Made by a program: the position numbers and the translations under genes. From Candidatus Nomurabacteria bacterium (GTDB lineage: Bacteria > Patescibacteriota > Patescibacteriia > UBA1558 > GWA2-36-10), in the NCBI GenBank assembly GCA_020632415.1, contig JACKFO010000002.1, positions 228,605 through 292,604 on the forward strand: a DNA stretch of 64,000 nt, written 5' to 3'. How positions within the stretch are numbered: the stretch's first letter is position 1; each line of letters starts with the position of its first letter. Of the stretch, positions 27,444 through 63,404 are shown in pieces. The notes under the pieces are model-generated. The model searched no databases. It saw only the letters and a list, made by a program, of their open reading frames with translations, and was not told the origin of the DNA.

Positions 27444-27479
27444 AAAACTCTCTAATTTTTAGAGAGTTTTTTATTTTTT
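27440..27479. terminator. Bidirectional rho-independent terminator
   Basis: AAAAAACTCTCTAAtttttTAGAGAGTTTTTTATTTTTT. Confidence 0.75.
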
Positions 27480-27846: not shown

Positions 27847-27864
27847 AAATTTATTGTTAAATAA

Positions 27865-29400: not shown

Positions 29401-29410
29401 ATTTTAAAAA

Positions 29411-33030: not shown

Positions 33031-33036
33031 TATTTT

Positions 33037-35935: not shown

Positions 35936-37133
35936 AGCTTAAAGTAAGCTCATACATTGGTCCGATGACCGAGATTGCGATAAAGCCAACCGCTAGACCA
36001 ACCAAAATTAATAAAACCGGCTCAATAATACTCGATAAATTAGCCAAGACATTATCAACTCTTTCTTGATAATAGTCGGCAATTTTTTTTAAAATATCGT
36101 CTAATTCTCCAGTTTTTTCGCCAATCTGGCACAACTGAACGGTCAAGGAAGGAAATAATTTTGGCCTTTGAGTCATTGCTTCAGCTAAAGAAACGCCCTT
36201 TGCCAGCTCAGTGGATATTTCTTGTACTACTTTACGATAGTAAAGATTATTTAAAGTCTTGGCAACAATCTCAAAAGCTTTGACAATTGATAGTCCCGAA
36301 ACTAACAAGGCATTTAGATTTCCAGCAAATCTGGTCAAAGACAATTCTTTGATTAGATTCCCAACAAAAGGAATTTTTAGCAAAAATTTATGCAAAGACA
36401 ATTTTGGTTTTTTTAATTTAAAAATAAAAAATAAACATATTAAAAAAATAAAAAAAGCAATCAAGACAAAGCCGCCATAGTTTTCCATGATATCAATGAC
36501 CGCTCGAATAGCTCGCAAAACAAAAGGCAATTCTATTCCTCCGTCTTCAAAAATACTTACTAGTTGTGGAAAAACAAATAAGGCCAAAAAAATGCTGACG
36601 CCCAATAAAGCAATTAAGACGATTACTGGATACATCATCGCACCAATTACCTTGCTACGTAGTTTTTTTTGAGCCTTTAAGATACTTGCTAAATTACCAA
36701 GGGCATCAGCAAGCATTCCGGTGTTTTCTCCGACCTCTACTGTAGCAATGATCATCTCTGGAAAGACGTCTGGGTATTCTTTCATGCTAACTGATAACAA
36801 CTGTCCGTTTTCAACGCGATCTCTTAGATGAGTGATTACTTTTTGTAAATATTTATTTTTAGTTTCTTTAGCTAAAGTTTCTAAAGCCGGTGTTAGGGCA
36901 AGCCCCGCTTTAAGCATAGTCGATAAGTTATCTAAAAAAAACATTTTTCCAGTAAGATTGACTTTGCCCGTGCGGAATTTAAAAAAATTTTTCTTTTTCG
37001 CCTTTTTTTCTTTAGTAACAAAACTTTCTTTGATTGATTGCGTTTCTTTTTTGACAGGAACCTCTTCTTTAGAAAGAATTTCTTCGCTCGGTTTTGGGGT
37101 ATTATTTAATTGGTTATTTCCCAAATATTTCAT
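35925..37133 (-). CDS. pilC: Type IV pilus assembly / type II secretion platform protein PilC/GspF
   Basis: 402 aa; two GspF-type repeats and three TM segments; Lys-rich N-terminal extension. Confidence 0.8.
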   Translation of the reverse strand: MKYLGNNQLNNTPKPSEEILSKEEVPVKKETQSIKESFVTKEKKAKKKNFFKFRTGKVNLTGKMFFLDNLSTMLKAGLALTPALETLAKETKNKYLQKVITHLRDRVENGQLLSVSMKEYPDVFPEMIIATVEVGENTGMLADALGNLASILKAQKKLRSKVIGAMMYPVIVLIALLGVSIFLALFVFPQLVSIFEDGGIELPFVLRAIRAVIDIMENYGGFVLIAFFIFLICLFFIFKLKKPKLSLHKFLLKIPFVGNLIKELSLTRFAGNLNALLVSGLSIVKAFEIVAKTLNNLYYRKVVQEISTELAKGVSLAEAMTQRPKLFPSLTVQLCQIGEKTGELDDILKKIADYYQERVDNVLANLSSIIEPVLLILVGLAVGFIAISVIGPMYELTLSFGE

Positions 37134-37140
37134 ATTTATT

Positions 37141-38874
37141 TTATTCGTGTCTAATGCTTAAGACTTCGGCAATTGTTGTGATGCCGATCAAAGCTTTTTG
37201 TAGGCCGTCTTCAAAAATGGTAATCATGCCATTGGCGATTGCTGTTTCTTGAATATCAGCAGAAGAAGAATTTTTAATAATTAATTTTTGAACAGCGGGA
37301 ATGTTTTCTAAAATTTCTAAAACACTGATTCTTCCTGAATAACCAGATTGATGACAAGACTTGCATCCTTTTCCTCGATAAAAAGTTAGCTCTGAAAAAT
37401 TCTGATATTTATCCTCTACCCATTTCAAGGCTTTAAATCTTTGCAATAATTCTTCTAGATTTAATTCTTTTCTTAAACTTTCGATTTCTTCCGGACTCAA
37501 ATGGTAACTTTCGATACATTTTAAACAAATTTTTCTCACCAAACGTTGAGCAATTACCACGTTAAGTGTAGAAGCTACCAAAAAGGGCTCCACTTCCATA
37601 TCCAGTAGTCTTGGTGGAGCTCCAGCGGCATTATTGGTGTGCAAAGTAGATAAGACCAAATGTCCGGTTAATCCAGCACGCACGGCAATTTGAGCGGTTT
37701 TATTATCCCTGATTTCCCCGATCATAATCACATCAGGATCTTGTCTTAATAAGGCTCTTAAGCCATTAGCAAAGTCGTAGCCAGCAACTGGATTGACTTG
37801 AGTTTGATTGATTCGATGTACTCCGTATTCTATCGGGTCTTCGATGGTGCAGATGTTTACTTCTTCGGTATTTAAAGTATTCAAAACCGAGTACAAAGTT
37901 GTAGTTTTTCCCGAACCAGTTGGCCCAACAACCAAAATCATCCCAAATGGTTTTTTGATCTGCTGAGTCATGATTTCAATATTTTTTTCAGAAAAACCTA
38001 GGCTTTCTAGACTAAAGTTTTGTGCTTCATCGGTCATCAAACGCAAGACCATTTTTTCTCCATAAAAAGCTGGAATTACTGAAACTCTGACTGATTCTTC
38101 TTGTCCTTCCAAAGAAAAAGAAAAACGGCCATCTTGAGGAACTCGATGTTCGTCTATTTTTAAGTTTGCTAAAATTTTTATTCTCGCGACAATTGCATCA
38201 TGAACCTCAGAAGGAAGTTCTACTTTGTCATGTAATTCTCCATCAATTCTAAAACGAACAACTACGGCGTCAGGCAAAGCCTCGATGTGAATATCAGAAG
38301 CTTGATCAAACAAAGCGTATTCTAAAATAGCATCAACAATTTGGATGATCGGTAAATCTAATTGACTTGGCGTTCCTTGGACTTCTTTAAATTTTTTGTT
38401 GATTATTTCGTGTAATTCTTCATTGATGTTTTTTTGATAAAGTCGAGAAGCAAAATAAAAGTTTTTTTGACTAGTTAAATAAGGAATTATTTCTTTTTTA
38501 AGTTGCTCTTTAACAAAAGTTAAATTTTCTTGATTTAAAGGATTGACAAAGGCCACTTTAATTTTATTTTCTTCTACAGCAAAAGGAATAGCTTGAGATT
38601 TATTAGCGGCGTCTTCACTAAATAAGTTAATTATTTCTTGCTCTAGTTTAATTTTCCTTAAATTAATATAAGGTATTTTTAAAAAATCACTAATTATTTC
38701 ATACAAAAATTGCTCATTAAAAAATCCTCTTTCAATCAAAACTTCTTCCACTCCTCGACGTCGACGAGAGGCATTTTTTTGGGCATTTTCCCAATCAGTT
38801 TCAGTAATTACTTTTTGGTTTAAAAGCAGCTCTTTTATTTTTTCGATTGCAATTGGTAAATTTGAAGAAGCCAT
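37141..38874 (-). CDS. pilB: Type IV pilus assembly ATPase PilB/GspE
   Basis: 577 aa; N-terminal T2SE_Nter-like region; Walker A GPTGSGKTT; GspE motifs; C-terminal Cys tetrad CLKC...CKSC. Confidence 0.85.
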   Translation of the reverse strand: MASSNLPIAIEKIKELLLNQKVITETDWENAQKNASRRRRGVEEVLIERGFFNEQFLYEIISDFLKIPYINLRKIKLEQEIINLFSEDAANKSQAIPFAVEENKIKVAFVNPLNQENLTFVKEQLKKEIIPYLTSQKNFYFASRLYQKNINEELHEIINKKFKEVQGTPSQLDLPIIQIVDAILEYALFDQASDIHIEALPDAVVVRFRIDGELHDKVELPSEVHDAIVARIKILANLKIDEHRVPQDGRFSFSLEGQEESVRVSVIPAFYGEKMVLRLMTDEAQNFSLESLGFSEKNIEIMTQQIKKPFGMILVVGPTGSGKTTTLYSVLNTLNTEEVNICTIEDPIEYGVHRINQTQVNPVAGYDFANGLRALLRQDPDVIMIGEIRDNKTAQIAVRAGLTGHLVLSTLHTNNAAGAPPRLLDMEVEPFLVASTLNVVIAQRLVRKICLKCIESYHLSPEEIESLRKELNLEELLQRFKALKWVEDKYQNFSELTFYRGKGCKSCHQSGYSGRISVLEILENIPAVQKLIIKNSSSADIQETAIANGMITIFEDGLQKALIGITTIAEVLSIRHE

Positions 38875-47104: not shown

Positions 47105-47137
47105 CAAAGACCAACCCGACGAGGTTGGTTTTTTATT
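47105..47137. terminator. Rho-independent terminator (serves islet transcript; also fits the minus-strand NUDIX gene)
   Basis: AAAGACCAACC-cgacgag-GGTTGGTTTTTTATTT. Confidence 0.7.
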
Positions 47138-47528
47138 TAATAAACCCAAAGTGTTTGAGTGTCGGAATAATATTTAGTGCCAAATTATCTGGCAAATCAT
47201 CTATGTCAAACCATTGCCATTCTCTAATATCTTCACCGGGTTTTATCTCTCCAATTTTTTCTGCTAGCCAATGAACTAAAATCACATCGATCTTAACATC
47301 GGCCATTTCTTTAGTCGTGTAAGTAATAAATGGTCTAGGATTAGTGATTTTTATTTCAATCCCCATTTCTTCTTTGACTTCTCGAGCGGCAGCTTCTTGC
47401 AAATTTTGGTCATAATCCTCTACTTTCCCACCACAAAATTTCCAAAATTCAGTGTCGCCATGTTGGTTAAGTAATACTTTATTATCTTCGACAATAACGG
47501 GTCCAGAAGCAATGATTATTTTTTGCAT
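47133..47528 (-). CDS. NUDIX hydrolase
   Basis: 131 aa; Nudix box GGKVEDYDQNLQEAAAREVKEEMGI. Confidence 0.8.
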   Translation of the reverse strand: MQKIIIASGPVIVEDNKVLLNQHGDTEFWKFCGGKVEDYDQNLQEAAAREVKEEMGIEIKITNPRPFITYTTKEMADVKIDVILVHWLAEKIGEIKPGEDIREWQWFDIDDLPDNLALNIIPTLKHFGFIK

Positions 47529-47530
47529 AA

Positions 47531-49027
47531 TTATCTACCAATTTTAAATATCTCTGCTTTTTCCAAAGCCTTACTAGCTAGTTTGATTCTTTCAGGGGTT
47601 CTGGCATACAAAGTAAATAGACGTTCACCTTTTTTGACGTGATCTCCATATTCTTTGTTTAAATACACACCACCAAGTTTATCTGCTGGCGCGCCCAAAA
47701 TACGAGCCACGGTATTGATCATTTTATTGTCAGTAAAAGTAATGTGGCCAGATTTATTTGAATTAAAATATTTTTTATGGGCTGCTAACACTATGTCATC
47801 TGGCTCAATTTCCGGATTACCACCTTGAGCTTTGATAATTTCCTGCATCTTTTTCCAAGCCTGGCCGCTTTCTAGGGTTTTCCACGCCAAAGTCGCTCCG
47901 TGGCCTTTTTTGGCACGACCTGCAAGCTCTAGCAGCTCTCCAGCCAAATGAATCGCCTTATTGGCTAAATCTGCTGGATAATTTGCTTTTTGCTGTAAGA
48001 CTCTTAAAACATCTCTGGCTTCTAAGGCTGGGCCAACACCCTTACCAACTGGATCTTCGGTCTGGATCATAATCACTTTAATTTTGATACCAAACTTTTT
48101 AGCAATATATTTAAATTTTGTTTCCAAATCTTTGGCAGTTTTCATGTCAGGAATTTTAGTTGTCTTCCCAACCGGCATATCAATGATCAAATGAGTCACG
48201 CCAGTAGCTACTTTTTTAGCCATAATACTGACTAACATTTTGCTATAAGGTTCCAAAGAAAGTGGATAAGAAACTTTCAAAATTTTATCGTCAGCTGGTG
48301 CTAAATTTAAACCACCGCCCCAAACCAAACAGCCTTTGTGTTTTTTGACAATCTCTTTGATCTTGGCAGCTGGAAAAGATACCGGCGCTAAAACTTCCAT
48401 GGTGTCTGAAGTGCCGGCCGGCGAAGTGATTGCTCGCGAAGAAGTTTTGGGAATAGTTAATCCCAAAGAAGCAATAATTGGAATCACAACCATTGTTGTT
48501 CTATTTCCAGCTAATCCGCCAACAGAATGTTTGTCCACCACCATTCCTGGAAATTTGAAAGTTTCGCCAGTTTCCGCCATGGCCTTAGTCATGAAATATA
48601 ATTCTTCATTAGAATATTCACGCATAAAGCCAGAAGCAACGAAATAAGTTGTTTCCGTACGAGTCAAAACACCAGAAGAAATGTCAGCGAAAATTTGATA
48701 AAACTCTTGATAAGTTAATTTTTTACCCAAAAGCCTTTTCTTAATCGCCTGAACTGATGGCGCTCTCTCTAAAAAATGAATTTCCACAATAGTATTTGCC
48801 GAAATTTTGCTTTTTTCCCAAATATCTTTGTACAAGCCAATTTGTCCGGGCTTGATAGTTTTGGCAGAAGTATTTGCTTCGGCAATAATATTTTTGTCTT
48901 GCCAACAAATTTTTATTTTATCACCAGCGCGAATACCATAACGCATGGCCTCATCAACGTTTAATAAAGCAATGTTTGATTGTCCGGTTTTAATATCAAG
49001 TTTTTTTATTTTTAAATAGTAGGCCAT
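47531..49027 (-). CDS. AMP phosphorylase-like enzyme (thymidine/pyrimidine-nucleoside phosphorylase family with N-terminal extension)
   Basis: 498 aa; family motifs VDKHSVGGLAGNRTTMVV and TSSRAITSPAGTSDTMEVL; length and N-terminal extension favour AMP phosphorylase over thymidine phosphorylase. Confidence 0.6.
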   Translation of the reverse strand: MAYYLKIKKLDIKTGQSNIALLNVDEAMRYGIRAGDKIKICWQDKNIIAEANTSAKTIKPGQIGLYKDIWEKSKISANTIVEIHFLERAPSVQAIKKRLLGKKLTYQEFYQIFADISSGVLTRTETTYFVASGFMREYSNEELYFMTKAMAETGETFKFPGMVVDKHSVGGLAGNRTTMVVIPIIASLGLTIPKTSSRAITSPAGTSDTMEVLAPVSFPAAKIKEIVKKHKGCLVWGGGLNLAPADDKILKVSYPLSLEPYSKMLVSIMAKKVATGVTHLIIDMPVGKTTKIPDMKTAKDLETKFKYIAKKFGIKIKVIMIQTEDPVGKGVGPALEARDVLRVLQQKANYPADLANKAIHLAGELLELAGRAKKGHGATLAWKTLESGQAWKKMQEIIKAQGGNPEIEPDDIVLAAHKKYFNSNKSGHITFTDNKMINTVARILGAPADKLGGVYLNKEYGDHVKKGERLFTLYARTPERIKLASKALEKAEIFKIGR

Positions 49028-49029
49028 AA

Positions 49030-50778
49030 TTAAAATTTTATTACTTCTCCTGGTTTTAAAGTTTTTTCTTGACTGTTGTTTTGAGCACTAGTATTTACTG
49101 GTGGAATTTTATTTAAGTTGGGATTCATTTTTAAAGCTTCTGACAAAGAAATAAAACCATCTTCTTTGTCTTCAATCTCTTCTTTTTTGTCTGCATTTTC
49201 AGAAACAATTTTAATATTTTTTGGTGAAGGTATCTTTCCTTGTTTGGATAAATTTAAACATTCTTTACAATAAATTGGTTTGTTCGGATCTGGATCAAAG
49301 TTGATTTCCGTCTCTTTGCCACAAAAAGAACAAATCACGTCTTTTTTAAAACCTTTATTTTTAGATTTCGATCTTTTGTTATCTTTATTCTCTTTTGATT
49401 TATTTGTGGTTTCTGCAGTCTTTTCTTTTGGTTTTGAATTTAAAGTAGAGTTAGCATTTGTTTTTGCTTTAGCTTTTACTTCTTCATCAATTTCTGACTT
49501 ATTTTCACTCCAACGAGTAATTTTTTCTTCAATTAATTCCCTTGGTTTAGCATAACGCTCTCGTGAAACAGAAATTACCTTACTTCTCACCTCAGGATTG
49601 CTATAAGAAACATCTATTGGTGGCAAAGTTTTCGCAGAAAAAGCCTCAGAGGCTACGCCATCGATCATTAGCTTCAAATAAACTTCATATTTAGTCAAAT
49701 TGACGAGATCAGTTTGCGTAAAATGTGGAAAAAATTCTTTTTCTAAAAATTCAGCATCAGTAGCGCCTACCCGAAAAGAAACTAGAGTCCCGACATTACC
49801 AAAAACCGCAGCTTGCACAGCTTCTTCCACTTGTTCAATGTATTGGTGGGCTAAAATTAAATTTAAACGATATTTTCTAGCTTCTGACAAAATGCCAGCA
49901 AAAGATTCAGTAGCAAAATTTTGAAACTCATCGACATAAAGATAAAAATCTTTACGTTCATTTTCAGGAATATTTACACGACTCATTGCCGCTAGTTGCA
50001 ATTTGGTAATCATCATTGCTCCTAACAAAGCTGAATTGTCCTCGCCAACTCTACCTTTGGCTAAATTTAAAAGTAAAATCTTTTGACCATCCATAATTTC
50101 TCGCATCGCAAAAGAAGATTTTACTTGACCCAAAATATTTCGAACTAAAGCAGAAGATAAAAATCTGCCAACCTTATTTTGAATCGGGGCAATTGCTTCA
50201 CTTTGAAAACGATCAGGATATTTAGAATATTCATCCACCCAAAATGATCTAACTACTGGGTCAGTGACTTTTTCTAAAACTCGATTACGAAAGGATTTGT
50301 CTACCAAAATTCTCATGATCCCCAACAAAGTTGAACCAGGATATTCAAGCAAAGCCGAAATCGCATGATGCAAAACATACTCTAAACGAGGTCCCCAGGA
50401 ATCAGCCCAAATTTTCTTGAAAACACCGATCAAACCAGAAACCACCAAATGTCTTTCAGCTTCATTGACGTTTTCCAAAACATTGAAAGCAATCGGAAAA
50501 TCCAAATCAGAAGGATTAAAATAAACAACGTCATTGATTCGAGATGCTGGAATAAAATCAATCACCTTTTCTACCAAATCACCATGAGGATCAATCACAC
50601 AAACACCATGACCGGCTTGAATATCCTGAATAATCATGTTCTCTAGAGCCGTTGATTTGCCCATGCCAGTTTTTCCAATAAAATACATATGACGACGTCG
50701 ATCGTCAGTTTTGATTCCAAATTTAACTTTGGAATTACGGAAATTAGTTTGAGCAAAAAAATTAATATCTTGACTCAT
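49030..50778 (-). CDS. FtsK-HerA superfamily P-loop ATPase, TraD/VirD4(T4CP)/HerA-like, with C-terminal Lys-rich linker and zinc ribbon
   Basis: 582 aa; Walker A GKTGMGKS, DPHGD motif, Walker B YLYVDEFQNF, ARKYRLNLILAHQ; C-terminal CSFCGKE...CKEC; paralogous to the C-terminal half of 60490-62931. Confidence 0.6.
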   Translation of the reverse strand: MSQDINFFAQTNFRNSKVKFGIKTDDRRRHMYFIGKTGMGKSTALENMIIQDIQAGHGVCVIDPHGDLVEKVIDFIPASRINDVVYFNPSDLDFPIAFNVLENVNEAERHLVVSGLIGVFKKIWADSWGPRLEYVLHHAISALLEYPGSTLLGIMRILVDKSFRNRVLEKVTDPVVRSFWVDEYSKYPDRFQSEAIAPIQNKVGRFLSSALVRNILGQVKSSFAMREIMDGQKILLLNLAKGRVGEDNSALLGAMMITKLQLAAMSRVNIPENERKDFYLYVDEFQNFATESFAGILSEARKYRLNLILAHQYIEQVEEAVQAAVFGNVGTLVSFRVGATDAEFLEKEFFPHFTQTDLVNLTKYEVYLKLMIDGVASEAFSAKTLPPIDVSYSNPEVRSKVISVSRERYAKPRELIEEKITRWSENKSEIDEEVKAKAKTNANSTLNSKPKEKTAETTNKSKENKDNKRSKSKNKGFKKDVICSFCGKETEINFDPDPNKPIYCKECLNLSKQGKIPSPKNIKIVSENADKKEEIEDKEDGFISLSEALKMNPNLNKIPPVNTSAQNNSQEKTLKPGEVIKF

Positions 50779-50783
50779 ATTTT

Positions 50784-52295
50784 TTAACCAGTAGGCAAAT
50801 TAGTTGGCGGCTCACCTTTTTTATCAGCCAACTGCTTTGTAATTTGTTTTTGTTTAAATTCTTCTTTATTTTTAGCAAATTTTTCTTCAAAATAATCATT
50901 ATCTAAATTGACATTAAAATCGGGCTTTTTATTTAGCTGAATTTTTAAATCCTGACTAACCCGATCGTTATCATTGCCACTCATAGAAATTGGCAAACCA
51001 GAAGGAGCTTCGCCTTTTTTGGTATCAGTACGCTTTAGAAGCGGTGTTCTGACTTCAATTCCTGGGAAGTGCCAAAGACTCGCAAGCTCTTCTGTATTTA
51101 AAATAAAGGTTTTATACCCAGCTACTGTACTTCTGCCTTTATAAGCTTTGATAATTTTGGCTTTTCGTTTTTTATTGCGATATTTAGTAAACCAATAATT
51201 TGTCGAAGTCTTAGTTTTTGCGTCAGGCTTAAAACTATTTAAATCAAGGGTAGAAAATTGTTTAATTGCTCCAAAAACCGAAGAAACTACTCGATTAGGA
51301 TTATAGTCTTCATTTGGCGACAAATAAACTAAACGAATTTTACAGTCAAAGCCTATTTTACCAGCTTTATTTTCAATTGCTTCTAAGGTTCCCTTTTCTC
51401 CTGGAGTCAAGTGAAGCATCAAGCTTGGCATGTCGTCTTTTTTCTTTTCCGCTTCCTTCCAAAGTGGAAAAATAAATTCGCCAATATTATCCATGGCATT
51501 GGTAATAAAATCAACAGACTGCGTAGCTTTATTTCCACCGCTGTCAGGCATTTTTTTACCAGCAATTTTATAAGCTGCTTCCTCGCTTTTTTTGATCCAA
51601 TCCACTCCGGTTGGGCGGACAATAATTTGAAGCCAAACTTGTTCACCAATGTGAATTTTACTCATCGTCTCCAGCAAAGCTGCTAGCGGATCTTTGTATT
51701 CTCCAGAAACCTTATCCTCAAAAGCTGGGTAAGTACGAATCGGCAAAGCATCTTCTTTAACCAAGACAACTTCTGTGCCCCAAATATTATAATCTTCGTC
51801 AGGATATTCTTCTGGCGCCCAATTAACATAATCATCAACTTCAGTAATTTCAGCATCCGGATACTGAGAATAAATCGAACTTTCGATCACATCGCGGTAT
51901 TGCACTGGAGTACGAATCAAAAACTGCACATAGCCATCGATACTAACGATTTCAAAAGAAAAAGCTAATTGAAAAATACCTTTAACATATTGGTCAACTT
52001 TATTAATATTAGCATGCGCTCCAGAAACGGTAGAAAATAAACCCTCAACTGCCTTTGGTGTTTGTTCATGTTCTTTAGGGATATCAACGGCCAACAAAAC
52101 AAATTTATTTGTGTCAAACCATTTATTCTGTTTTTCCATGATCCAAACCTCATAACCTTGAGTGATCAAGATCCAAGCCAAAGGAATCCAACCGCCATGA
52201 GCGATAATATACCACAAAGCAAAAATAGGCCCCTTGTCAGCAGCAATAAATAATGGTGATAAATCAATCACTAAATTTAAAAATTCTATCTGCAT
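50784..52295 (-). CDS. Membrane-anchored partner protein; homologous to the N-terminal half of the 813-aa fused ATPase
   Basis: 503 aa; two N-terminal TM helices; segments align with residues about 60-400 of the 60490-62931 protein. Confidence 0.5.
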   Translation of the reverse strand: MQIEFLNLVIDLSPLFIAADKGPIFALWYIIAHGGWIPLAWILITQGYEVWIMEKQNKWFDTNKFVLLAVDIPKEHEQTPKAVEGLFSTVSGAHANINKVDQYVKGIFQLAFSFEIVSIDGYVQFLIRTPVQYRDVIESSIYSQYPDAEITEVDDYVNWAPEEYPDEDYNIWGTEVVLVKEDALPIRTYPAFEDKVSGEYKDPLAALLETMSKIHIGEQVWLQIIVRPTGVDWIKKSEEAAYKIAGKKMPDSGGNKATQSVDFITNAMDNIGEFIFPLWKEAEKKKDDMPSLMLHLTPGEKGTLEAIENKAGKIGFDCKIRLVYLSPNEDYNPNRVVSSVFGAIKQFSTLDLNSFKPDAKTKTSTNYWFTKYRNKKRKAKIIKAYKGRSTVAGYKTFILNTEELASLWHFPGIEVRTPLLKRTDTKKGEAPSGLPISMSGNDNDRVSQDLKIQLNKKPDFNVNLDNDYFEEKFAKNKEEFKQKQITKQLADKKGEPPTNLPTG

Positions 52296-52398: not shown

Positions 52399-53502
52399 TT
52401 AAGCATTTTTGAGGAAATATCTACCTTTACTATCTCTTTCAAAGCGGTCTTTATTCATCAGAGCCAAAGTAATCGTCGTTTCTTTAATCATTCTTTTCTT
52501 TAAAACTTCAGCGATAATTTCTTTTTTACTCAATGGTCTATCTTGTTCGATTAAAATTTCAGCAATTACATCTGCAACGACGCCTGGTTTATAACCCCAT
52601 TCTTTTAAGGCATAAATACCACGACCAACCAAGACATATTTATCATCCAAAATTAATTCATTATGAATAGTTGCAGGATAAGCCTTTCTTTTATCAAAGG
52701 ATTTTGAGTTAATAATTTCAGCGATCTCTGTAAAATGTAATGGTTTATTTTCTTTTTTCAAGACAATGTAGATTTTGTCATTCATTCTCTTCGGGGTAAT
52801 ACTTGGCCATTCAGTTAAACCCCATTCTTGATAAGGATTGTCTTTAATTTTCTTGGTAATATCCAAAAAGTTGACTACCATTTTTTCAGTCAGATCATCG
52901 TTAGAGGTAAAAAAATCAGCTTCTGAAACATTTTTAACTAATTTTTCAAGCTCTAATGCTTCTTTGTATTCTAAAATTAATTGGCGTAAATTTTCAATAA
53001 CCTCTTCAAAAAAATCAAGAGAAGCTTCTGGGGTTTTCCAAAAACTATGATTATGTTTGTTTTCTTTGACAAAATGAAAACGATGATTTAAAAGTTGACT
53101 CAAGACAAAATTAATCGCAGCTTTGTTTTCATCAGTTACACCAGGAACCATCAATAATTCTTTAATCAAACTTTCTTCAGACATCATGCCGCCATGCTCA
53201 GCTAAAATAGCGTTGGCAATATCTTCAATTTGTTTGATAAAATTTTCATCAAAACTTTTACTGATTTTTTTCAAAGCACTATTTTCAATTTGACGCACTC
53301 TTTCACGAGTGATTTTGTATTGACCACCGATGTCTTCTAGGGTTTTTTTATCAGCTCCAGCCAAACCATGTCGCATTTTCAAAATCTCTTGCTCACGTTC
53401 GGAAAGCAGGCCTAAAATACGCTCGACAGTAGCGCTGGGATTAAATTCGGCTAAATGAGATAACTGTTGTGCAGTCATTACTTGATCTAAAATTGAACTC
53501 AT
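52399..53502 (-). CDS. Protein with N-terminal sigma-70 region 4 (HTH) domain and about 280-aa uncharacterised C-terminal domain
   Basis: 367 aa; residues about 30-80 LSEREQEILKMRHGLAGADKKTLEDIGGQYKITRERVRQIENSALKKI match region 4.2; no regions 2 or 3 detectable. Confidence 0.55.
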   Translation of the reverse strand: MSSILDQVMTAQQLSHLAEFNPSATVERILGLLSEREQEILKMRHGLAGADKKTLEDIGGQYKITRERVRQIENSALKKISKSFDENFIKQIEDIANAILAEHGGMMSEESLIKELLMVPGVTDENKAAINFVLSQLLNHRFHFVKENKHNHSFWKTPEASLDFFEEVIENLRQLILEYKEALELEKLVKNVSEADFFTSNDDLTEKMVVNFLDITKKIKDNPYQEWGLTEWPSITPKRMNDKIYIVLKKENKPLHFTEIAEIINSKSFDKRKAYPATIHNELILDDKYVLVGRGIYALKEWGYKPGVVADVIAEILIEQDRPLSKKEIIAEVLKKRMIKETTITLALMNKDRFERDSKGRYFLKNA

Positions 53503-59798: not shown

Positions 59799-60428
59799 TT
59801 ATAAGTTAATTTCTAAATCTTCTTCTTGATAATTTTTATTTTTTTTATTTTTGATCACATTTTCAACGGCTGCCCATTCACTATCTTCATCTTTTGGCAC
59901 CAAGATCACAACTTCATCACCTTCTTCGCCTTTGAAATAAGTAATACTGGCTAATAATACTTTAAATATTTTTTCCCCAGCCAAAACAACAAAATTTCCA
60001 CTTTCTTTATCTCTCACCAAATGTCCGATCAAACGCTGTCTCTCTACTGGTGAAATTTGTTTGAAAACAAAAGCCCCGTTATTATCAATCGTTAGTTTTA
60101 AAATATCTCCTTCAACTAATTTTGATTTTGAAGCATAGTTCGCTGGCACTGAATATTGTTTGCCGTCAGGACCAATCATGATTTGACCATTAAAAACCCC
60201 TTCAATCACCAAACCTTCCTCTTCAGTATCTTCTCGGCCATATTCGGCTGCTTTCAAACTATAATTTACAGCATCTTTTGGCTTTTTGCCCTGCAACTCT
60301 CCTAAAACTATTTTAGTTTTTTTGAGCTCTAATTCTAAATTGTAAACCAAAGATTCTAAATCTTTAATTTTTTTTGCATCTGCCATTTTTATTTTTTGTT
60401 TTTGTAAATTTTTTGCTCTTTTCTTCAT
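59799..60428 (-). CDS. Hypothetical protein (209 aa) with N-terminal coiled-coil
   Basis: ORF only; true start may be the internal MADAKK; sits between the fused ATPase gene and dnaX. Confidence 0.4.
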   Translation of the reverse strand: MKKRAKNLQKQKIKMADAKKIKDLESLVYNLELELKKTKIVLGELQGKKPKDAVNYSLKAAEYGREDTEEEGLVIEGVFNGQIMIGPDGKQYSVPANYASKSKLVEGDILKLTIDNNGAFVFKQISPVERQRLIGHLVRDKESGNFVVLAGEKIFKVLLASITYFKGEEGDEVVILVPKDEDSEWAAVENVIKNKKNKNYQEEDLEINL

Positions 60429-60489: not shown

Positions 60490-62931
60490 TTAGACTTTTA
60501 AACGCCTTACCACTTCTTCTTCGATTAACTTCCTATCTCGTCCATATTTTAAGGCTGACAATTCTTTGATTGCCTGGGCTAATTCAAAATGACCTTTTTC
60601 TGGTTTGATTGGTTGAAAATTAAAAGCTGGAGTGACTGTATTGTCAATCAATAATTTTACATAACAAGTATATTTTGGCATATTGATCAAATCATATTCT
60701 GAGACTACTGGAGCCATTTGTTTGGCAATAATCTCTGAATCTTCTACGCCAATTCGGAAAGAAACCAAAGTTCCAACATTACCAAAAATAGCATCTCTGG
60801 TTCTAGTATCTCCGCTTTTAACTAACTGAGCAATAAACTGATGAGCTAAAATTAAATTTAATTTATATTTTCTGGCTTCTGACAAAATAACCGAAACTGT
60901 ATCAGTAATAAAATTTTGAAACTCATCAATGTATAGATAAAAGTCCTTTCTGTCTTCTTCGGCAGTGTCTACCCGACTCATGGCAGCAAATAATAATTTT
61001 CCAATCACCACCATTCCTAGTAAACTACTATTTGTTTCACCGATCTTACCTTTGGATAGATTCAATAAAACAATTTTATTTGAATCCATCGCCTCTCGGA
61101 AATTAAAAGCACTTTTACTTTGAGCGATAATCGGTCGAATCAAATCATTGGAAATAAACGGAGTTAATTTACTAGTAATATAAGGAACCATGTTAGCTAA
61201 GGCTGCATCGCCGCCAGCTTTTTGCGCCTCTTTTTCCCAAAAATCTTTGACAAAAACATTTTTAACAGTCTCTAATTTTTTCTTTCGATACTCAGCGTCT
61301 GCTAAAATTTTTGGAATTTCTAATAGCGTCGCTCCGCTTTCTTTATCATCCATAACCAGCAACATGGCATTGCGCATGTATTGTTCAAACATCGGACCAC
61401 CGGTAGCTTTTAAGTCGTATAGTTTATCAAAAATTGCAATCATTTCGTTGATCACAAAAGTTTTTTGCTCTTCCGTTTCATATTCCAACATGTTCATTCC
61501 TAATGGTCGTTGGGAATTTGCCGGATCAAACAAAATCACATCTTCTGCTCTTTCTTTTGGAATTTGAGTCAAAATAACCTCTACCAAATCACCATGTGGA
61601 TCAACTACGCAGACTCCCTTGCCAGCTTTAATGTCCTGAATAATTAAACTTTCCTGAAAAACAGATTTTCCGGTTCCAGTCTGACCAATGACATACATAT
61701 GGCGGCGGCGATCCTCTGACTTGATCCTAACTAGGGTCTCTCGACCACGATAAGAGCTTTTGCCGAGTATTAAGCCATCTTGGGGCATATTGCTTGGTGG
61801 TGGGGCCTTAACAGCCTCCAACCAAGCAATGTTTGGAGTTTCGGTGGTCGGTAAAGGCAAATGAATGACCGAAACCATTTCTTCTGAATTCAAAAGAAAA
61901 CTATTTTTATCAATAAATTGTCGGAAAATAAACTGATCAATCAATTTGTCAGATTTTTTAGGAAGCAAAGCTTCGAAGCTATTACCAAATTCATAAATAT
62001 TGTATTGCGCATAACTATTCAAAATATCTTCCAAAACTGCCTCTGATCTTTCTTTGCTATTGCTAGAAACAACCACTCTTAGATTGACATCTAAGGCTGG
62101 TTTAGAGTTTTTATCTTCTAAAAGCTTACTAATTTCCTGTTCTTTAGCAGAACTTTGATGTTTATTTTCTAATGGAAATTGTTGATGATCTTTATTTTTG
62201 TCTGGACTAGCAAAATTAAAAAAACTTCCTAAAAATGAGAAAAACCCAAAAATTGATTTTCCACTACCCGCTTTTGAAACCGCAGTTTGCAAACTCTCAC
62301 CATCTTGCATGTTTCTAACAATTTTCCTTGCTCTGCTATGCCAAGCCTTTGGCGCGGATTTAAAAACATACTGAATGGAAGCTGACTCATGTTCGTTCAG
62401 CTTACTCAAAGCATTGGTAATACTCTCCAAAGGATCATTTTCAAAAACATGGTAAGTTTTGATCGGTAAAGTAGAATCTTTTTTTAATTTCAAAGCACCT
62501 GCTTTAATCACACTGTTAGCTTCAAAAATATTGTAATCAGAAATTTCTTCAAAATAAACTTTTGGATAAACTGATTGAAATTGTTGTAAAAAAAATTCTT
62601 TTAATTTTTTAGGGACGGCCACGTAAAAATAAATAATCCCCTTAAAGGCTACCATTTCTAAAGAAAAAATTCTTTCTTTTTTCAAAGATTTTTCAGATTT
62701 CAAACCAGCTAGAGCAGTAAAAAGATTTTCAATTCGACCCAAAGCGCCATTAATATAATCTTTATTTAATTCATCCTGATCTTTTTTGGTATATCTAGGA
62801 ACTTTGAGCAAAAGCATTTCTAGTTCAGGATTTTTATTAATATTTTTTTTATACCAAAAAAATAAAATTACTAAGGCAATGGCCAGTAATAAAAAAATGC
62901 TGATTAAAATAATAGCTTCTAGCGAAATCAT
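60490..62931 (-). CDS. Fused membrane-anchored FtsK-HerA superfamily ATPase (TraD/VirD4/HerA-like); single-gene equivalent of the 50784-52295 plus 49030-50778 pair
   Basis: 813 aa; N-terminal TM; middle region homologous to the 503-aa protein; C-terminal ATPase with GQTGTGKS, DPHGD, YLYIDEFQNF, ARKYKLNLILAHQ. Confidence 0.6.
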   Translation of the reverse strand: MISLEAIILISIFLLLAIALVILFFWYKKNINKNPELEMLLLKVPRYTKKDQDELNKDYINGALGRIENLFTALAGLKSEKSLKKERIFSLEMVAFKGIIYFYVAVPKKLKEFFLQQFQSVYPKVYFEEISDYNIFEANSVIKAGALKLKKDSTLPIKTYHVFENDPLESITNALSKLNEHESASIQYVFKSAPKAWHSRARKIVRNMQDGESLQTAVSKAGSGKSIFGFFSFLGSFFNFASPDKNKDHQQFPLENKHQSSAKEQEISKLLEDKNSKPALDVNLRVVVSSNSKERSEAVLEDILNSYAQYNIYEFGNSFEALLPKKSDKLIDQFIFRQFIDKNSFLLNSEEMVSVIHLPLPTTETPNIAWLEAVKAPPPSNMPQDGLILGKSSYRGRETLVRIKSEDRRRHMYVIGQTGTGKSVFQESLIIQDIKAGKGVCVVDPHGDLVEVILTQIPKERAEDVILFDPANSQRPLGMNMLEYETEEQKTFVINEMIAIFDKLYDLKATGGPMFEQYMRNAMLLVMDDKESGATLLEIPKILADAEYRKKKLETVKNVFVKDFWEKEAQKAGGDAALANMVPYITSKLTPFISNDLIRPIIAQSKSAFNFREAMDSNKIVLLNLSKGKIGETNSSLLGMVVIGKLLFAAMSRVDTAEEDRKDFYLYIDEFQNFITDTVSVILSEARKYKLNLILAHQFIAQLVKSGDTRTRDAIFGNVGTLVSFRIGVEDSEIIAKQMAPVVSEYDLINMPKYTCYVKLLIDNTVTPAFNFQPIKPEKGHFELAQAIKELSALKYGRDRKLIEEEVVRRLKV

Positions 62932-63404
62932 TGTTTGTTTTCTTGTTTATACATGTTTAAAATCGCGTCGGCTTTAATTTTTGCTTCCTGCTGCAAAAAA
63001 TGTTTATTAACTTTTGGTATAATTCTAAGCCACTGAAAAATTAAATCAATGATTTTTTTCATTTTAGCTTTTCCAGATTTAAGCAAAACAAATATTTTTT
63101 TGGCAGTTTCTTCACCTTTTTGTTTAAAAACTAATTGCGTAGCACTATCCATCGATAAAAAAGCACTTTCCATATTTTCAGATAAAATACTTTCTACTTT
63201 TTTTAGTTCCAAATCAGCGTCAAAATTAGCGTTTTGCGAAACACTTTTTACTTGAGGCAAGTCAATATTTATCGGTTCTCTTTCTTGTTTTTCTTGACTT
63301 GACTGCTCTGGAGTTGTTTCTTTGGATTCTAATTTTTGACCAGAATCTTTTTCCAAAGAAACAGGCTCTTGTTTTAGATCTAATTCAAATTTATTTTCTG
63401 GCAT
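62928..63404 (-). CDS. Hypothetical acidic protein (158 aa)
   Basis: 4-nt start/stop overlap with downstream ATPase gene (operon); no motifs. Confidence 0.4.
   Translation of the reverse strand: MPENKFELDLKQEPVSLEKDSGQKLESKETTPEQSSQEKQEREPINIDLPQVKSVSQNANFDADLELKKVESILSENMESAFLSMDSATQLVFKQKGEETAKKIFVLLKSGKAKMKKIIDLIFQWLRIIPKVNKHFLQQEAKIKADAILNMYKQENKQ

What the first reader, a model, noticed from the sequence alone, without database searches (positions are those of the whole stretch)
49030..52295. Split version of a membrane-anchored ATPase whose fused 813-aa paralogue lies at 60490-62931
The 503-aa protein aligns with the N-terminal half of the 813-aa protein, for example EGLFSTVSG..FSFEIVSIDGYVQF..YPDAEITEVDDY vs ENLFTALAG..FSLEMVAFKGIIYF..YPKVYFEEISDY, and ILNTEELASLWHFPGIEVRTP vs FLLNSEEMVSVIHLPLPTTETP. 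The 582-aa ATPase aligns with its C-terminal half, DDRRRHMYFIGKTGMGKS...VIDPHGDL vs EDRRRHMYVIGQTGTGKS...VVDPHGDL, and shares Walker B and arginine-finger blocks. This is a clean gene fission/fusion pair inside one genome, the kind of evidence that pins down a physical interaction. Architecture and motifs resemble type IV coupling proteins and HerA-type translocases. The split ATPase additionally carries a Lys-rich linker and a CxxC...CxxC zinc ribbon absent from the fused copy. No VirB4, VirB6 or relaxase genes are adjacent to either copy. The substrate (DNA, protein, or something else) is therefore open. The two copies may serve different cargo.
Basis: seen in the sequence. Interest (0 to 1): 0.7.

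Follow-up and report, generated by a model that had tools for sequence, protein, structure and literature searches.

The report
Split and fused T4SS coupling ATPases
This ultra-small (Patescibacteria) bacterium carries two sister genes for a membrane-anchored, conjugation-type "coupling protein" motor, one intact and one cut into an anchor half and a motor half; both forms are conserved in hundreds of related species, and the anchor half is predicted to fold like the front end of the VirB4 secretion ATPase.

Summary
The 503-aa protein (50784-52295, minus strand) matches residues 67-383 of the 813-aa protein (BLASTP E=2e-15; profile-profile E=5e-39). The 582-aa ATPase matches residues 382-809 (44% identity, E=2e-121). 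This is not a broken gene. The split form occurs in at least 589 species genomes, and the two forms are sister clades inside Patescibacteria.

The same fused architecture is encoded in the T4CP position, next to a separate VirB4 and a relaxase-family gene, on an actinobacterial and a Bacillus plasmid. A haloarchaeal plasmid carries a split version.

So this is a duplicated, chromosomal, orphan monoderm-type T4CP with one copy split. A 2025 survey already counted orphan T4CP homologues in Patescibacteria. I found no published account of four points:
- the VirB4-like N-domain;
- the conserved fission at a PPxNLP linker;
- the zinc ribbon on the split ATPase;
- the two separate conserved gene neighbourhoods.

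Cargo and channel partner remain unknown.

The parts
50784..52295 (-). Split copy, anchor half: 503-aa protein with one N-terminal TM helix, a cytoplasmic DUF8128 (VirB4-NTD-like) domain and a variable tail ending in PPTNLP
52158..52232 (-). Predicted TM helix of the 503-aa protein (residues ~22-46)
   Evidence: Hydrophobicity maximum in all 56 orthologues, median 1.9. It lies within the long AF2 helix H23-62. An acidic N-terminus and K/R after the helix suggest an N-out, C-in topology (inference).
50976..52118 (-). DUF8128 core of the split copy (residues ~60-440)
   Evidence: hhalign of A1 columns 40-443 against fused profile columns 40-421, E=5e-39. Motifs conserved in both paralogues include YP, DY, PI(R/K)TY, DP and N.EEL...H.P.
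50793..50810 (-). C-terminal PPTNLP motif, three codons before the stop; it corresponds to the interdomain linker PPPSNMP of the fused copy and marks the fission point
   Evidence: Sequence read. The motif P.[NG][LMI]P lies in the last 14 residues of 65 of 80 orthologues, including those without an adjacent ATPase gene. P497, N499, L500 and P501 are nearly invariant.
49030..50778 (-). Split copy, motor half: 582-aa soluble VirD4/TrwB-type ATPase with a Lys-rich linker and zinc ribbon
   Evidence: 44% identity to fused residues 382-809, E=2e-121. Pfam TrwB_AAD_bind 46 bits, DUF87, TraG-D_C and zf_Tbcl_2. No TM segment. The start codon lies 5 nt after the stop of the 503-aa gene, in a different frame.
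50653..50676 (-). Walker A (GKTGMGKS, residues 35-42) of the split ATPase
   Evidence: Read from the translation and aligned to GQTGTGKS of the fused copy.
49927..49944 (-). Walker B (YLYVDE, residues 279-284) of the split ATPase
   Evidence: Read from the translation and the alignment.
49252..49341 (-). CxxC-x17-CxxC zinc ribbon (residues 480-509), preceded by a Lys-rich linker (nt 49342-49503)
   Evidence: PF23477 E=2.3e-10 and TIGR04272 E=6.9e-11, both above cutoff. The motif is present in 43 of 57 split-lineage ATPases. It is absent from the fused copy.
60490..62931 (-). Fused paralogue: 813 aa = TM helix (residues 4-31), DUF8128 (~35-385, nt 61777-62829), PPPSNMP linker, VirD4-type ATPase (386-813)
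62928..63404 (-). 158-aa ORF whose stop overlaps the start of the fused gene (ATGA); recurrent upstream neighbour
   Evidence: Overlap read. The C-terminal 89 residues are 54% identical in L081. A homologue lies upstream of the fused gene in about 14 of 80 metagenome loci. No Pfam or NCBIfam hit.
59799..60428 (-). 209-aa ORF; recurrent downstream neighbour of the fused gene, lying between it and dnaX
   Evidence: 59-65% identical homologues sit downstream of the fused gene in two different genomic contexts: directly in L082 (no dnaX), and one gene removed and before dnaX in L081. Detected downstream in about 9 of 80 metagenome loci. The only lead is a non-significant AbrB-like match, E=0.48.
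52399..53502 (-). 367-aa sigma-70 region 4 + HARE-HTH protein; commonest upstream neighbour of the split pair
   Evidence: Pfam Sigma70_r4 E=8e-14 and HARE-HTH E=2e-12. By my hand count it is upstream of the N-domain gene in about 57 of 80 genomes. Whether it is functionally linked is unknown.
47133..49027 (-). Nucleoside/AMP-phosphorylase-like gene (498 aa) and Nudix-like gene (131 aa), 2-bp gaps downstream of the split ATPase; possibly the same operon in close relatives only
   Evidence: Pfam PYNP_C, Glycos_transf_3 and Glycos_trans_3N for the 498-aa protein. The Nudix label is my reading of the translation; that ORF was never profile-scanned. Promoter-like site at 52341-52313(-) and terminator-like hairpin at 47129-47110(-). 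The phosphorylase gene directly follows the ATPase in 8 of the 10 closest loci (L001-L010) and recurs 3-4 kb away in three others.

Best explanation
The two loci encode paralogous membrane-anchored translocation motors of the VirD4/TrwB coupling-protein (T4CP) type, in the long form used by conjugative elements of single-membrane prokaryotes.

Architecture. Each unit has one N-terminal TM helix, a cytoplasmic DUF8128 domain with the predicted fold of the VirB4 N-terminal domain, a short PPxN(L/M)P linker, and a P-loop motor with a helical insertion.

History. An ancestor within Patescibacteria duplicated the gene. One copy stayed fused (813 aa). The other was cut just after the linker into an anchor/adaptor protein (503 aa) and a soluble ATPase (582 aa) that gained a Lys-rich tail and a zinc ribbon.

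Shown here: homology of both halves, the predicted folds, conservation of both forms across Patescibacteria, the position of the fission point, and intact Walker motifs in both motors.

Inferred:
- The 503-aa and 582-aa proteins assemble non-covalently into the equivalent of the fused protein, probably as a hexameric ring under the membrane.
- DUF8128 plays the VirB4-NTD role of membrane-proximal collar and adaptor to a channel.
- The conserved C-terminal PPxNLP tail and the ATPase N-terminal segment (consensus ITxFAxTNFRN) contribute to docking.

My best guess on cargo (about 55%) is DNA or a nucleoprotein, at least for the split copy. The channel partner is unknown. It could be the Patescibacterial T4SS encoded elsewhere, or something else.
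For: Homology of both halves:
- BLASTP E=2e-15 (N halves) and E=2e-121 (ATPase halves).
- hhalign E=5e-39 over 366 columns for the N-domains.

T4CP identity of the motor:
- Pfam TrwB_AAD_bind (46 and 40 bits, cutoff 20.5), T4SS-DNA_transf (38 bits, cutoff 20.1) and TraG-D_C all pass their cutoffs.
- The best solved-structure sequence hits are TrwB and DotL.
- The pSK41 T4CP TrsK aligns over 307 columns of the motor, whereas pSK41 VirB4 (TrsE) aligns over only 45 columns around the P-loop.

N-domain fold:
- The 13 best Foldseek hits are all full-length TrwK chains.
- The VirB4 C-terminal-domain-only structure 4ag5, TrwB and HerA do not appear among the 60 listed hits for this model. The match is therefore to the VirB4 N-terminal domain, not to a RecA-like domain.

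Same architecture in the T4CP position elsewhere:
- The Embleya plasmid 812-aa protein lies between a VirB4-like ATPase and a Replic_Relax gene. It aligns with the fused profile over 671 columns, E=2e-49.
- The B. subtilis plasmid 913-aa protein lies next to a replication-relaxation-family gene, TcpE and an AAA_10 VirB4. It aligns over 637 columns, E=1.8e-32.
- Natrinema plasmid pNVE500 carries a split pair: a 395-aa N-domain protein (E=1.7e-6 against A1) followed by a 1030-aa TraM-recognition ATPase.

Conservation:
- At least 589 genome-collection stretches encode the split N protein.
- At least 592 metagenome stretches encode a relative of the 813-aa query, and nearly all of the 80 kept loci hold a full-length fused ORF.
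- 3,197 protein clusters at 50% identity match the N-domain profile.
- Both forms occur on the same contigs.
- A neighbour-joining tree places the split and fused motors as sister clades, with the Embleya, Bacillus and Natrinema proteins outside.

Coupling of the two halves:
- In loci where the ATPase gene follows the N gene, the median gap is about 4 bp.
- A 1016-aa re-fused form (L013) nests inside the split clade.
- The PPxNLP end is kept in 65 of 80 N proteins.
Against: - No interaction, oligomer or ATPase activity was measured or modelled.
- Classical T4CPs are not known to carry a VirB4-like N-domain, and they have two TM helices, not one (established knowledge of TrwB and TraD).
- Scores against curated NCBIfam T4CP models are far below their cutoffs.
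- No VirB4, relaxase-family or PrgI/VirB3 homologue was found by BLAST in the window or in about 160 related loci. PMC12102498 finds only 148 of 5,713 T4CP homologues near virB4.
- In 13 of 80 genomes the N-domain gene has no adjacent ATPase gene. The partnership is therefore not always encoded in cis.
- The evidence for DNA as cargo is circumstantial: family ancestry, the zinc ribbon with its basic tail, and DNA-related neighbours.
Confidence: 0.75

Rival explanations
1. Both copies are the missing coupling proteins of the Patescibacterial T4SS, whose genes (VirB4, TrsD, VirB3, VirB6, VirB2-like pilins) lie elsewhere in the genome. They would recruit protein or DNA substrates and hand them to that machine. 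The two copies might serve different cargo.
For: - Coupling to a T4SS is the only established function of T4CPs.
- The fused architecture sits inside T4SS clusters on Embleya, Bacillus and haloarchaeal plasmids.
- Patescibacterial VirB4 nests within the monoderm MPF-FATA class, and 2,417 of 3,035 genomes have it (PMC12102498).
- The Southlakia T4SS cluster lacks a recognisable coupling protein (PMC10633639).
Against: - T4CP homologues were found in 2,918 of 3,035 genomes, but VirB4 in only 2,417. Only 148 of 5,713 T4CP homologues lie near virB4.
- The T4CP homologue of S. epibionticum is not essential, while the T4SS genes are.
- Each copy keeps its own conserved neighbourhood unrelated to T4SS genes.
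- I could not check whether this genome has a VirB4, because only the 64-kb window was available.
Confidence: 0.35
2. The pair has been exapted into a T4SS-independent DNA motor for uptake, export or processing of DNA. This would be analogous to the archaeal CedB/CedD pair, which consists of two paralogous proteins with a TM segment, a VirB4-NTD-like domain and an ATPase, and is needed for DNA import.
For: - CedB and CedD have this architecture, occur as two paralogues, and are required for DNA import (PMC11868833).
- A weak NCBIfam CedD hit covers the P-loop region of both proteins.
- The split ATPase carries a basic tail and a zinc ribbon.
- Neighbours include a HARE-HTH DNA-binding protein, dnaX and, in close relatives, a nucleoside phosphorylase and a Nudix-like gene.
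- T4CP homologues are more widespread than VirB4, and PMC12102498 itself raises exaptation.
Against: - The CedD model scores about 30 bits against a cutoff of 600, and the motor is of the VirD4 type by sequence, not the HerA/Ced type.
- Competence in Saccharibacteria depends on ComEC, and no T4CP requirement has been reported.
- Synteny with housekeeping genes may simply reflect conserved gene order.
- No nucleic-acid binding has been shown for this zinc-ribbon family (one search found nothing relevant).
Confidence: 0.25
3. The proteins are divergent VirB4 ATPases (assembly or pilus-biogenesis motors) rather than coupling proteins, because they have VirB4's two-domain layout.
For: - The N-domain matches the VirB4 N-terminal domain.
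- pSK41 provides a precedent for a separate small protein next to VirB4: trsD lies directly upstream of the VirB4 gene trsE, and PMC12102498 describes TrsD as remotely homologous to the N-terminal portion of VirB4.
Against: - Sequence profiles favour T4CP. AAA_10 scores 15.6 bits against a cutoff of 27.5, and no CagE_TrbE_VirB hit was found.
- TrsE/VirB4 aligns only over the P-loop, whereas TrsK/VirD4 aligns over 307 columns.
- In the Embleya and Bacillus plasmid clusters a separate genuine VirB4 sits beside the homologue.
- Patescibacterial VirB4 forms its own clade and is counted separately in PMC12102498.
- TrsD shows no similarity to the 503-aa family (hhalign probability 0.2).
Confidence: 0.08
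4. The split copy is a decaying gene or an assembly or frameshift artefact of a once-fused gene.
For: The two ORFs are only 5 nt apart, and a 1016-aa fused version exists at the same position in one relative.
Against: - The split occurs in at least 589 species genomes, with each half at 40-80% identity to the window proteins.
- Gaps between the two genes range from -65 to +237 bp.
- The end and start motifs are conserved on both sides of the cut.
- Walker motifs are intact.
- The fused L013 form nests inside the split clade, so it is a secondary re-fusion.
Confidence: 0.01

Closest known systems
Long-form VirD4-type coupling proteins of monoderm conjugative elements (for example the 812-aa protein of Embleya sp. 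plasmid NZ_CP108778 and the 913-aa 'DUF87' protein of B. subtilis plasmid NZ_OX419568)
   Same: End-to-end homology including the N-domain: hhalign E=2e-49 over 671 columns and E=1.8e-32 over 637 columns. Similar length, the same N.EEL...H.P motif, and the same Walker motifs.
   Different: Those genes sit in conjugation clusters beside a VirB4 and a replication-relaxation-family gene. The Patescibacterial genes are chromosomal, duplicated, encoded away from any T4SS or relaxase gene, and one copy is split.
Classical T4CPs: TrwB (R388), VirD4, TraD, DotL, Cag-beta
   Different: Classical T4CPs are not known to have a roughly 350-residue VirB4-like domain between anchor and motor, and they have two TM helices (established knowledge). 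NCBIfam equivalog cutoffs are not reached.
VirB4 (TrwK of R388; Thermoanaerobacter VirB4 C-terminal domain)
   Different: About 9% sequence identity. VirB4 sequence profiles are not matched. VirB4 is anchored through VirB3 rather than its own TM helix (PMC3548315). A separate VirB4 coexists with homologues of this family in conjugative clusters.
CedB/CedD of the crenarchaeal Ced DNA-import system
   Same: TM segment, VirB4-NTD-like domain and FtsK-HerA-superfamily ATPase. Two paralogues per genome. Not part of a classical conjugative element (PMC11868833).
   Different: The Ced motors are HerA-clade proteins. The CedD model scores about 30 bits against a cutoff of 600, over the P-loop region only. 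Each Ced N-domain covers only part of the VirB4 N-terminal domain. Neither Ced protein is split.
TrsD + TrsE of pSK41/pGO1, and the TrsD + VirB4 pairs of Patescibacteria
   Same: A small separate protein, reported to resemble the N-terminal portion of VirB4, encoded directly upstream of the ATPase gene. This is a precedent for encoding the N-module separately.
   Different: TrsD (227 aa) shows no detectable similarity to the 503-aa family (hhalign probability 0.2). TrsD partners with VirB4, not with a T4CP-type motor.
Split pair on haloarchaeal plasmid pNVE500 (395-aa hypothetical protein + 1030-aa TraM-recognition ATPase)
   Same: The same fission into an N-domain protein and a motor, encoded by overlapping genes.
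   Different: It is plasmid-borne and lies beside a pilin gene and a second T4SS-type ATPase. Similarity is weak (hhalign probability 90, E=1.7e-6). It is probably an independent fission.
EccE of type VII secretion systems
   Different: The similarity is partial (149 residues) and Foldseek support is weak. No sequence similarity was found.

Membership tests
VirD4/TrwB-type coupling protein (T4CP) | P-loop motor matching curated T4CP sequence profiles | tested here: met
   TrwB_AAD_bind scores 46.0 and 40.2 bits (cutoff 20.5). T4SS-DNA_transf scores 38.0 bits (cutoff 20.1). TraG-D_C scores 23.0 and 28.1 bits (cutoff 22). TrwB and DotL are the best solved-structure sequence hits.
VirD4/TrwB-type coupling protein (T4CP) | All-alpha domain inserted between Walker A and Walker B | tested here: met
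VirD4/TrwB-type coupling protein (T4CP) | N-terminal membrane anchor | tested here: met
   One TM helix in the fused protein (residues 1-31) and one in the 503-aa protein (~22-46). Classical T4CPs have two.
VirD4/TrwB-type coupling protein (T4CP) | Encoded with, or functionally tied to, a T4SS (VirB4) and usually a relaxase | tested here: not met
   None was found in the 64-kb window or in about 160 related loci by BLAST with distant queries, which is a weak test. Only 148 of 5,713 Patescibacterial T4CP homologues lie near virB4. The feature is met by the Embleya and Bacillus homologues. The rest of this genome could not be searched.
VirD4/TrwB-type coupling protein (T4CP) | Curated NCBIfam model cutoffs (TraD, CD1115, TraG) | tested here: not met
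   The best scores are 53.7 bits against a cutoff of 366 (SXT_TraD) and 42.9 bits against 250 (CD1115).
VirD4/TrwB-type coupling protein (T4CP) | Hexamer formation, DNA-stimulated ATPase activity, substrate or relaxase binding | not testable with these tools
   This needs biochemistry.
VirB4 | VirB4-type N-terminal domain | tested here: met
VirB4 | VirB4 sequence profiles (AAA_10, CagE_TrbE_VirB, TraC) | tested here: not met
   AAA_10 scores 15.6 bits against a cutoff of 27.5, and there is no CagE_TrbE_VirB hit. TraC-F-type scores 15.8 bits against 567. pSK41 TrsE aligns over only 45 columns.
VirB4 | Acts as the VirB4 of its gene cluster | tested here: not met
   In the Embleya and Bacillus plasmid clusters a separate VirB4-like ATPase is encoded beside the homologue (AAA_10 E=4e-83 for the Bacillus protein, E=1e-11 plus P-loop_TraG for the Embleya protein).
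CedB/CedD (Ced DNA import) | TM segment, VirB4-NTD-like domain and ATPase; two paralogues per genome | tested here: met
   The architecture and the paralogue pair match the description in PMC11868833.
CedB/CedD (Ced DNA import) | Sequence membership (NCBIfam CedD NF053655) | tested here: not met
   30.1 and 27.6 bits against a cutoff of 600, over the P-loop region only.
TrsD (VirB4-NTD-like protein of pGO1/pSK41) | Sequence similarity to TrsD | tested here: not met
   hhalign of the 503-aa family profile against pSK41 TrsD gives probability 0.2.
Pfam DUF8128 (PF26449) | Match to the family model | tested here: met
   A precomputed PF26449 hit is recorded on both window proteins and on every listed homologue. 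The name is given. The local Pfam copy gave no match for this domain in either the 503-aa or the 813-aa protein.
zf_Tbcl_2 / CxxC-x17-CxxC zinc ribbon | Match above the curated cutoff | tested here: met
   PF23477 scores 40.5 bits (cutoff 27) and TIGR04272 scores 41.7 bits (cutoff 36) at residues 480-509 of the 582-aa protein.

The most novel reading that the evidence does not exclude
The fused and split paralogues together form a near-universal translocation motor of Patescibacteria that does not depend on VirB4. It might be a mixed assembly resembling VirB4's hexamer of dimers or the archaeal CedB/CedD pair. It would move DNA or nucleoprotein across the single membrane, for scavenging, export or exchange with the host. 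On this reading the VirB4-like N-domain is an ancestral feature that links the VirB4 and VirD4 families.
Probability: 0.2. Interest if true: 0.8.

Novelty: new variant of a known kind. Interest (0 to 1): 0.5.

Why it matters
Patescibacteria make up a large share of uncultured bacteria and depend on host cells. Their envelope machines are the main candidates for how they obtain what they need. A 2025 survey found T4CP homologues in 96% of 3,035 genomes, almost never next to T4SS genes, and left their role open.

This analysis adds several points to that survey:
- At least in the lineages sampled here, two of those hits per genome are a fused gene and a split gene of one family. The excerpt of the survey's Table S3 that I read likewise lists up to two VirD4-profile hits per genome.
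- The unannotated gene beside the split ATPase is its missing N-terminal half.
- That half is predicted to fold like the VirB4 N-terminal domain.
- The family descends from the coupling proteins of monoderm conjugative elements.

This gives concrete, testable predictions:
- which two proteins should bind each other, and through which conserved tail;
- which genes to delete together in genetically tractable Saccharibacteria.

It also offers a possible structural link between VirB4 and VirD4, two ATPase families long thought to share an ancestor. The work does not reveal the cargo, so the biological payoff is still prospective.

Tried and rejected
- Pseudogene or frameshift artefact. Rejected on conservation in at least 589 genomes, variable intergenic gaps, and the sister-clade phylogeny.
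- Similarity limited to the P-loop. Rejected: the N-domains align with E=5e-39.
- The 503-aa protein as a TrsD homologue. Rejected: hhalign probability 0.2.
- Divergent VirB4. Judged unlikely from sequence profiles and from the presence of a separate VirB4 in the plasmid clusters.
- Solved-structure sequence search with the N-domain profile. Only insignificant ribosomal protein S6 hits, E about 0.15.
- Local Pfam and NCBIfam scans of the 503-aa, 158-aa and 209-aa proteins. No hits.
- Solved-structure sequence search with the 209-aa protein. Only a non-significant AbrB-like match, E=0.48.
- Profile search of 1.84 billion representative proteins with the N-domain. It gave family size only (3,197 clusters); the 150 listed hits all appear to be split-family members, so no remote relatives emerged.
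- AlphaFold-database fold library. Unavailable.
- Literature searches for DUF8128/PF26449, for a VirB4-like N-domain in T4CPs, and for the CxxC-x17-CxxC domain. Nothing relevant was found.
- BLAST for VirB4, relaxase-family and PrgI homologues in the window and in the flanks of about 160 loci. Nothing was found, but the queries were distant.
- Whole-genome check for T4SS genes. Not possible, because only the 64-kb window was available.
- Synteny with secD, secF and secA as evidence of a role in protein secretion. Considered and set aside, because it may only reflect conserved housekeeping gene order.

Full report
**Observation**

The 503-aa protein aligns with residues 67-383 of the 813-aa protein at 21% identity over 360 columns, E=2e-15. 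Profiles built from 56 and 54 orthologues align with hhalign probability 100, E=5e-39, over 366 columns. The 582-aa protein aligns with residues 382-809 at 44% identity, E=2e-121, and the Walker A, Walker B and ILSEARKY(R/K)LNLILAHQ blocks are shared.

The Lys-rich linker and the CxxC-x17-CxxC zinc ribbon (PF23477 and TIGR04272, both above cutoff) occur only in the split ATPase. The fused protein has a TM helix at residues 1-31. The 503-aa protein has one at about 22-46, which is the hydrophobicity maximum in all 56 orthologues. The 582-aa ATPase has none.

**Organism and conservation**

The 503-aa and 813-aa proteins are identical to NCBI entries from a 'Candidatus Nomurabacteria bacterium' MAG on an 842-kb contig. 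The window is about 33% G+C and full of housekeeping genes.

Both forms are conserved families:
- The best 120 homologues of the 503-aa protein are nearly all about 430-530 aa long, apart from a few truncated entries.
- The best 120 homologues of the 813-aa protein are mostly about 800-870 aa long.
- All named entries but one are Patescibacteria or unclassified bacteria. The exception is labelled Candidatus Bipolaricaulota.
- Several contigs carry one of each form, judged by matching longest-contig lengths.

A metagenome scan found at least 592 stretches encoding a relative of the 813-aa query, and nearly all of the 80 kept loci hold a full-length fused ORF. An exhaustive profile search found 3,197 clusters at 50% identity.

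A neighbour-joining tree of the motor domains puts the split and fused lineages as sister clades. The actinobacterial, Bacillus and haloarchaeal proteins lie outside them. The tree is a rough distance tree, not a maximum-likelihood analysis. The simplest history is a duplication within Patescibacteria followed by fission of one copy. One genome (L013) has a 1016-aa re-fused gene that nests inside the split clade.

**Anatomy of the split**

In the 56 loci where an ATPase gene follows the N gene, the gap ranges from -65 to +237 bp, with a median of about 4 bp. In this window the gap is 5 nt and the two genes are in different frames, so read-through cannot join them.

Sixty-five of 80 N proteins end with PPxNLP plus two or three residues. 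In the shortest versions this motif aligns with the PPPSNMP linker (residues 377-383) that joins the two domains of the fused protein. The window's protein has an extra, poorly predicted tail and a second copy of the motif.

The split ATPases begin with a conserved segment (consensus ITxFAxTNFRN....FGIK.DDRRRH), which matches LILGKSSYRG...RIKSEDRRRH in the fused protein. The cut therefore lies just after the interdomain linker. My inference is that the conserved tail helps dock the motor.

The zinc ribbon is present in 43 of 57 split-lineage ATPases. Thirteen of 80 genomes have the N gene without an adjacent ATPase. In most of these it is followed by a GT4 glycosyltransferase, a DUF4012 protein and a DUF11 protein. 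These N genes still keep the PPxNLP end, so the partner is presumably encoded elsewhere.

**What the N-domain is**

The local Pfam and NCBIfam copies gave no hit. The precomputed annotation calls the domain PF26449, DUF8128.

AlphaFold2 models were reasonably confident: 503-aa protein pLDDT 77 and pTM 0.69; 813-aa protein pLDDT 82.8 and pTM 0.65.

The VirB4 C-terminal-domain-only structure, TrwB and HerA do not appear among the 60 listed hits for this model. The match is therefore to VirB4's N-terminal domain, not to a degenerate motor domain.

**What the motor is**

By sequence it is a coupling protein:
- TrwB_AAD_bind, T4SS-DNA_transf and TraG-D_C all score above their gathering cutoffs.
- TrwB and DotL are the only solved-structure sequence hits.
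- The pSK41 T4CP TrsK aligns over 307 columns, whereas pSK41 VirB4 (TrsE) aligns over only the 45 columns around the P-loop.

**Relatives outside Patescibacteria**

A tblastn search of the 813-aa protein against plasmids found 360 records. Three were examined in detail.

- *Embleya plasmid.* The gene order is PrgI/VirB3, XF1762-family protein, VirB4-like ATPase, an 812-aa 'conjugative DNA transfer' protein, a Replic_Relax protein, and NlpC/P60. The 812-aa protein aligns with the fused profile over 671 columns, E=2e-49, N-domain included.
- *B. subtilis 65-kb plasmid.* A 913-aa 'DUF87' protein lies beside a gene annotated as replication-relaxation family, TcpE and an AAA_10 VirB4. It aligns over 637 columns, E=1.8e-32.
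- *Natrinema plasmid pNVE500.* A 395-aa hypothetical protein (hhalign against the split N profile: probability 90, E=1.7e-6) overlaps the start of a 1030-aa TraM-recognition ATPase. This is a split version, in a cluster that also holds a pilin gene and a second T4SS-type ATPase.

So the layout of TM helix, DUF8128 and VirD4-type motor occupies the coupling-protein position, beside a separate VirB4, in some monoderm conjugative elements. Fission of this layout has probably happened more than once.

**Literature**

Quinonero-Coronel et al. 2025 (PMC12102498) report the following for 3,035 Patescibacterial genomes:
- VirB4 in 2,417 genomes.
- 5,713 T4CP homologues in 2,918 genomes.
- Only 148 of those T4CP homologues near virB4.

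They note that the Southlakia T4CP homologue is dispensable, and they say exaptation cannot be excluded.

In the excerpt of their Table S3 that I read, genomes carry up to two VirD4-profile hits, all far from virB4. The gene next to them, which here is the DUF8128 protein, is not listed as a T4SS component. TrsD hits sit next to VirB4. pSK41 TrsD has no similarity to the 503-aa family.

Wang et al. 2023 (PMC10633639) state that the essential Southlakia T4SS lacks recognisable coupling and relaxase proteins.

PMC11868833 describes CedB and CedD of Sulfolobales. These are two paralogous proteins with a TM segment, a VirB4-NTD-like domain and an ATPase, and both are needed for DNA import.

No paper in the searchable library mentions DUF8128, or a VirB4-like N-domain in T4CPs.

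**Neighbourhoods**

The split pair lies in a widely conserved order: secD, secF, a sigma-70 region 4 + HARE-HTH gene, the N gene, then the ATPase gene. In 8 of the 10 closest loci a nucleoside/AMP-phosphorylase-like gene follows the ATPase directly, and five of those also have a Nudix-like gene next. In the window, these two genes follow at 2-bp gaps. A promoter-like site lies before the N gene and a terminator-like hairpin lies after the Nudix-like gene. These are consensus matches only.

The fused gene overlaps the stop of a 158-aa ORF by 4 bp (ATGA). It is followed by a 209-aa ORF and then dnaX. The 209-aa homologue stays downstream of the fused gene at 59-65% identity even where dnaX is absent. 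In more distant loci BLAST detects these small neighbours in only about 9 to 20 of 80.

None of these neighbours is a T4SS, relaxase or competence gene. A type IV pilus/T2SS-like cluster lies about 10 kb downstream of the split pair.

**Mechanism**

I commit to the following model. Each unit is a membrane-tethered ring motor of the T4CP kind. DUF8128 forms the membrane-proximal layer, as the VirB4 N-terminal domain does in the R388 inner-membrane complex. In the split copy the two layers are separate polypeptides that assemble after closely coupled expression.

The homology, predicted folds, conservation and fission point are shown. The assembly, ring formation and collar role are inferred.

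The cargo is unknown. I lean towards DNA or nucleoprotein (about 55%). The reasons are the family's conjugative ancestry, the basic tail and zinc ribbon, and the DNA-related neighbours.

The partner channel is also unknown. The main rivals are coupling to the T4SS encoded elsewhere, and an exapted role that does not depend on the T4SS, resembling the Ced system.

**Verdict**

It is a new variant of a known kind: orphan, duplicated, partly split monoderm-type coupling proteins with a VirB4-like N-domain. It is not a new kind of system. Interest is moderate, because orphan T4CP homologues in this phylum are already published, but the analysis turns an unexplained count into a specific, testable two-protein model.

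Noticed in passing
window 32071-38874 (-): A type IV pilus/T2SS-like cluster about 10 kb downstream of the split pair. It contains a PilB-like T2SSE ATPase (37141-38874), a PilC-like T2SSF protein (35925-37133), two N_methyl pseudopilins, a 632-aa LVIVD beta-propeller protein with a pilin-like N-terminus, and a PA14-domain protein.
   Followed up: partly
window ~14000-32000; ORF 14311-15255 (+): GC skew changes sign, and gene orientation switches from the + strand to the - strand at about 15.3 kb. A Xer-like tyrosine recombinase gene sits at the switch. This looks like the replication terminus. The two T4CP loci would then lie about 35-47 kb from it.
   Followed up: partly
window 52399-53502 (-): A 367-aa protein with sigma-70 region 4, HARE-HTH and a winged-helix-like domain. 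By my hand count it lies immediately upstream of the split N-domain gene in about 57 of 80 genomes, even where secDF or the ATPase gene are not adjacent. It may be a DNA-binding partner or just a conserved neighbour.
   Followed up: partly
window 59799-60428 (-) and 62928-63404 (-): Two small proteins without any family match flank the fused gene. The 209-aa protein is more conserved than the ATPase itself (59-65% identity) and follows the fused gene in different genomic contexts. Its only lead is a non-significant AbrB-like match (E=0.48). The 158-aa ORF overlaps the start of the fused gene by 4 bp.
   Followed up: partly
L013:5242-8292: A 1016-aa gene at the split locus of one MAG joins the N-domain, the ATPase and the zinc ribbon. 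It nests inside the split clade next to L010, so it is a secondary re-fusion, or possibly an assembly error.
   Followed up: partly
L011, L015-L017, L021, L024, L034, L042, L055, L058, L064, L070: In these genomes the N-domain gene has no adjacent ATPase gene. In most of them it is followed by a GT4 glycosyltransferase, a DUF4012 protein, a DUF11 surface-type protein and TGT. The protein still ends in PPxNLP. Where its motor partner is encoded is unknown.
   Followed up: partly
L165 (Natrinema versiforme pNVE500) 5598-13150: This haloarchaeal plasmid cluster has a 1102-aa T4SS-type ATPase directly upstream of the split N-domain/ATPase pair, so it also carries two related motors side by side.
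   Followed up: no
window 47531-49027 and 47133-47528 (-): A nucleoside/AMP-phosphorylase-like gene and a Nudix-like gene follow the split ATPase with 2-bp gaps. The phosphorylase gene directly follows the ATPase in 8 of the 10 closest loci and recurs 3-4 kb away in three more distant ones. This hints at a link to nucleotide salvage but may be coincidental. The Nudix label rests on my reading of the translation only.
   Followed up: partly
window 15534-17405 (-): A 623-aa protein that fuses a Memo-like domain with a PGA_cap (capsule synthesis) domain. It is unrelated to the finding.
   Followed up: no
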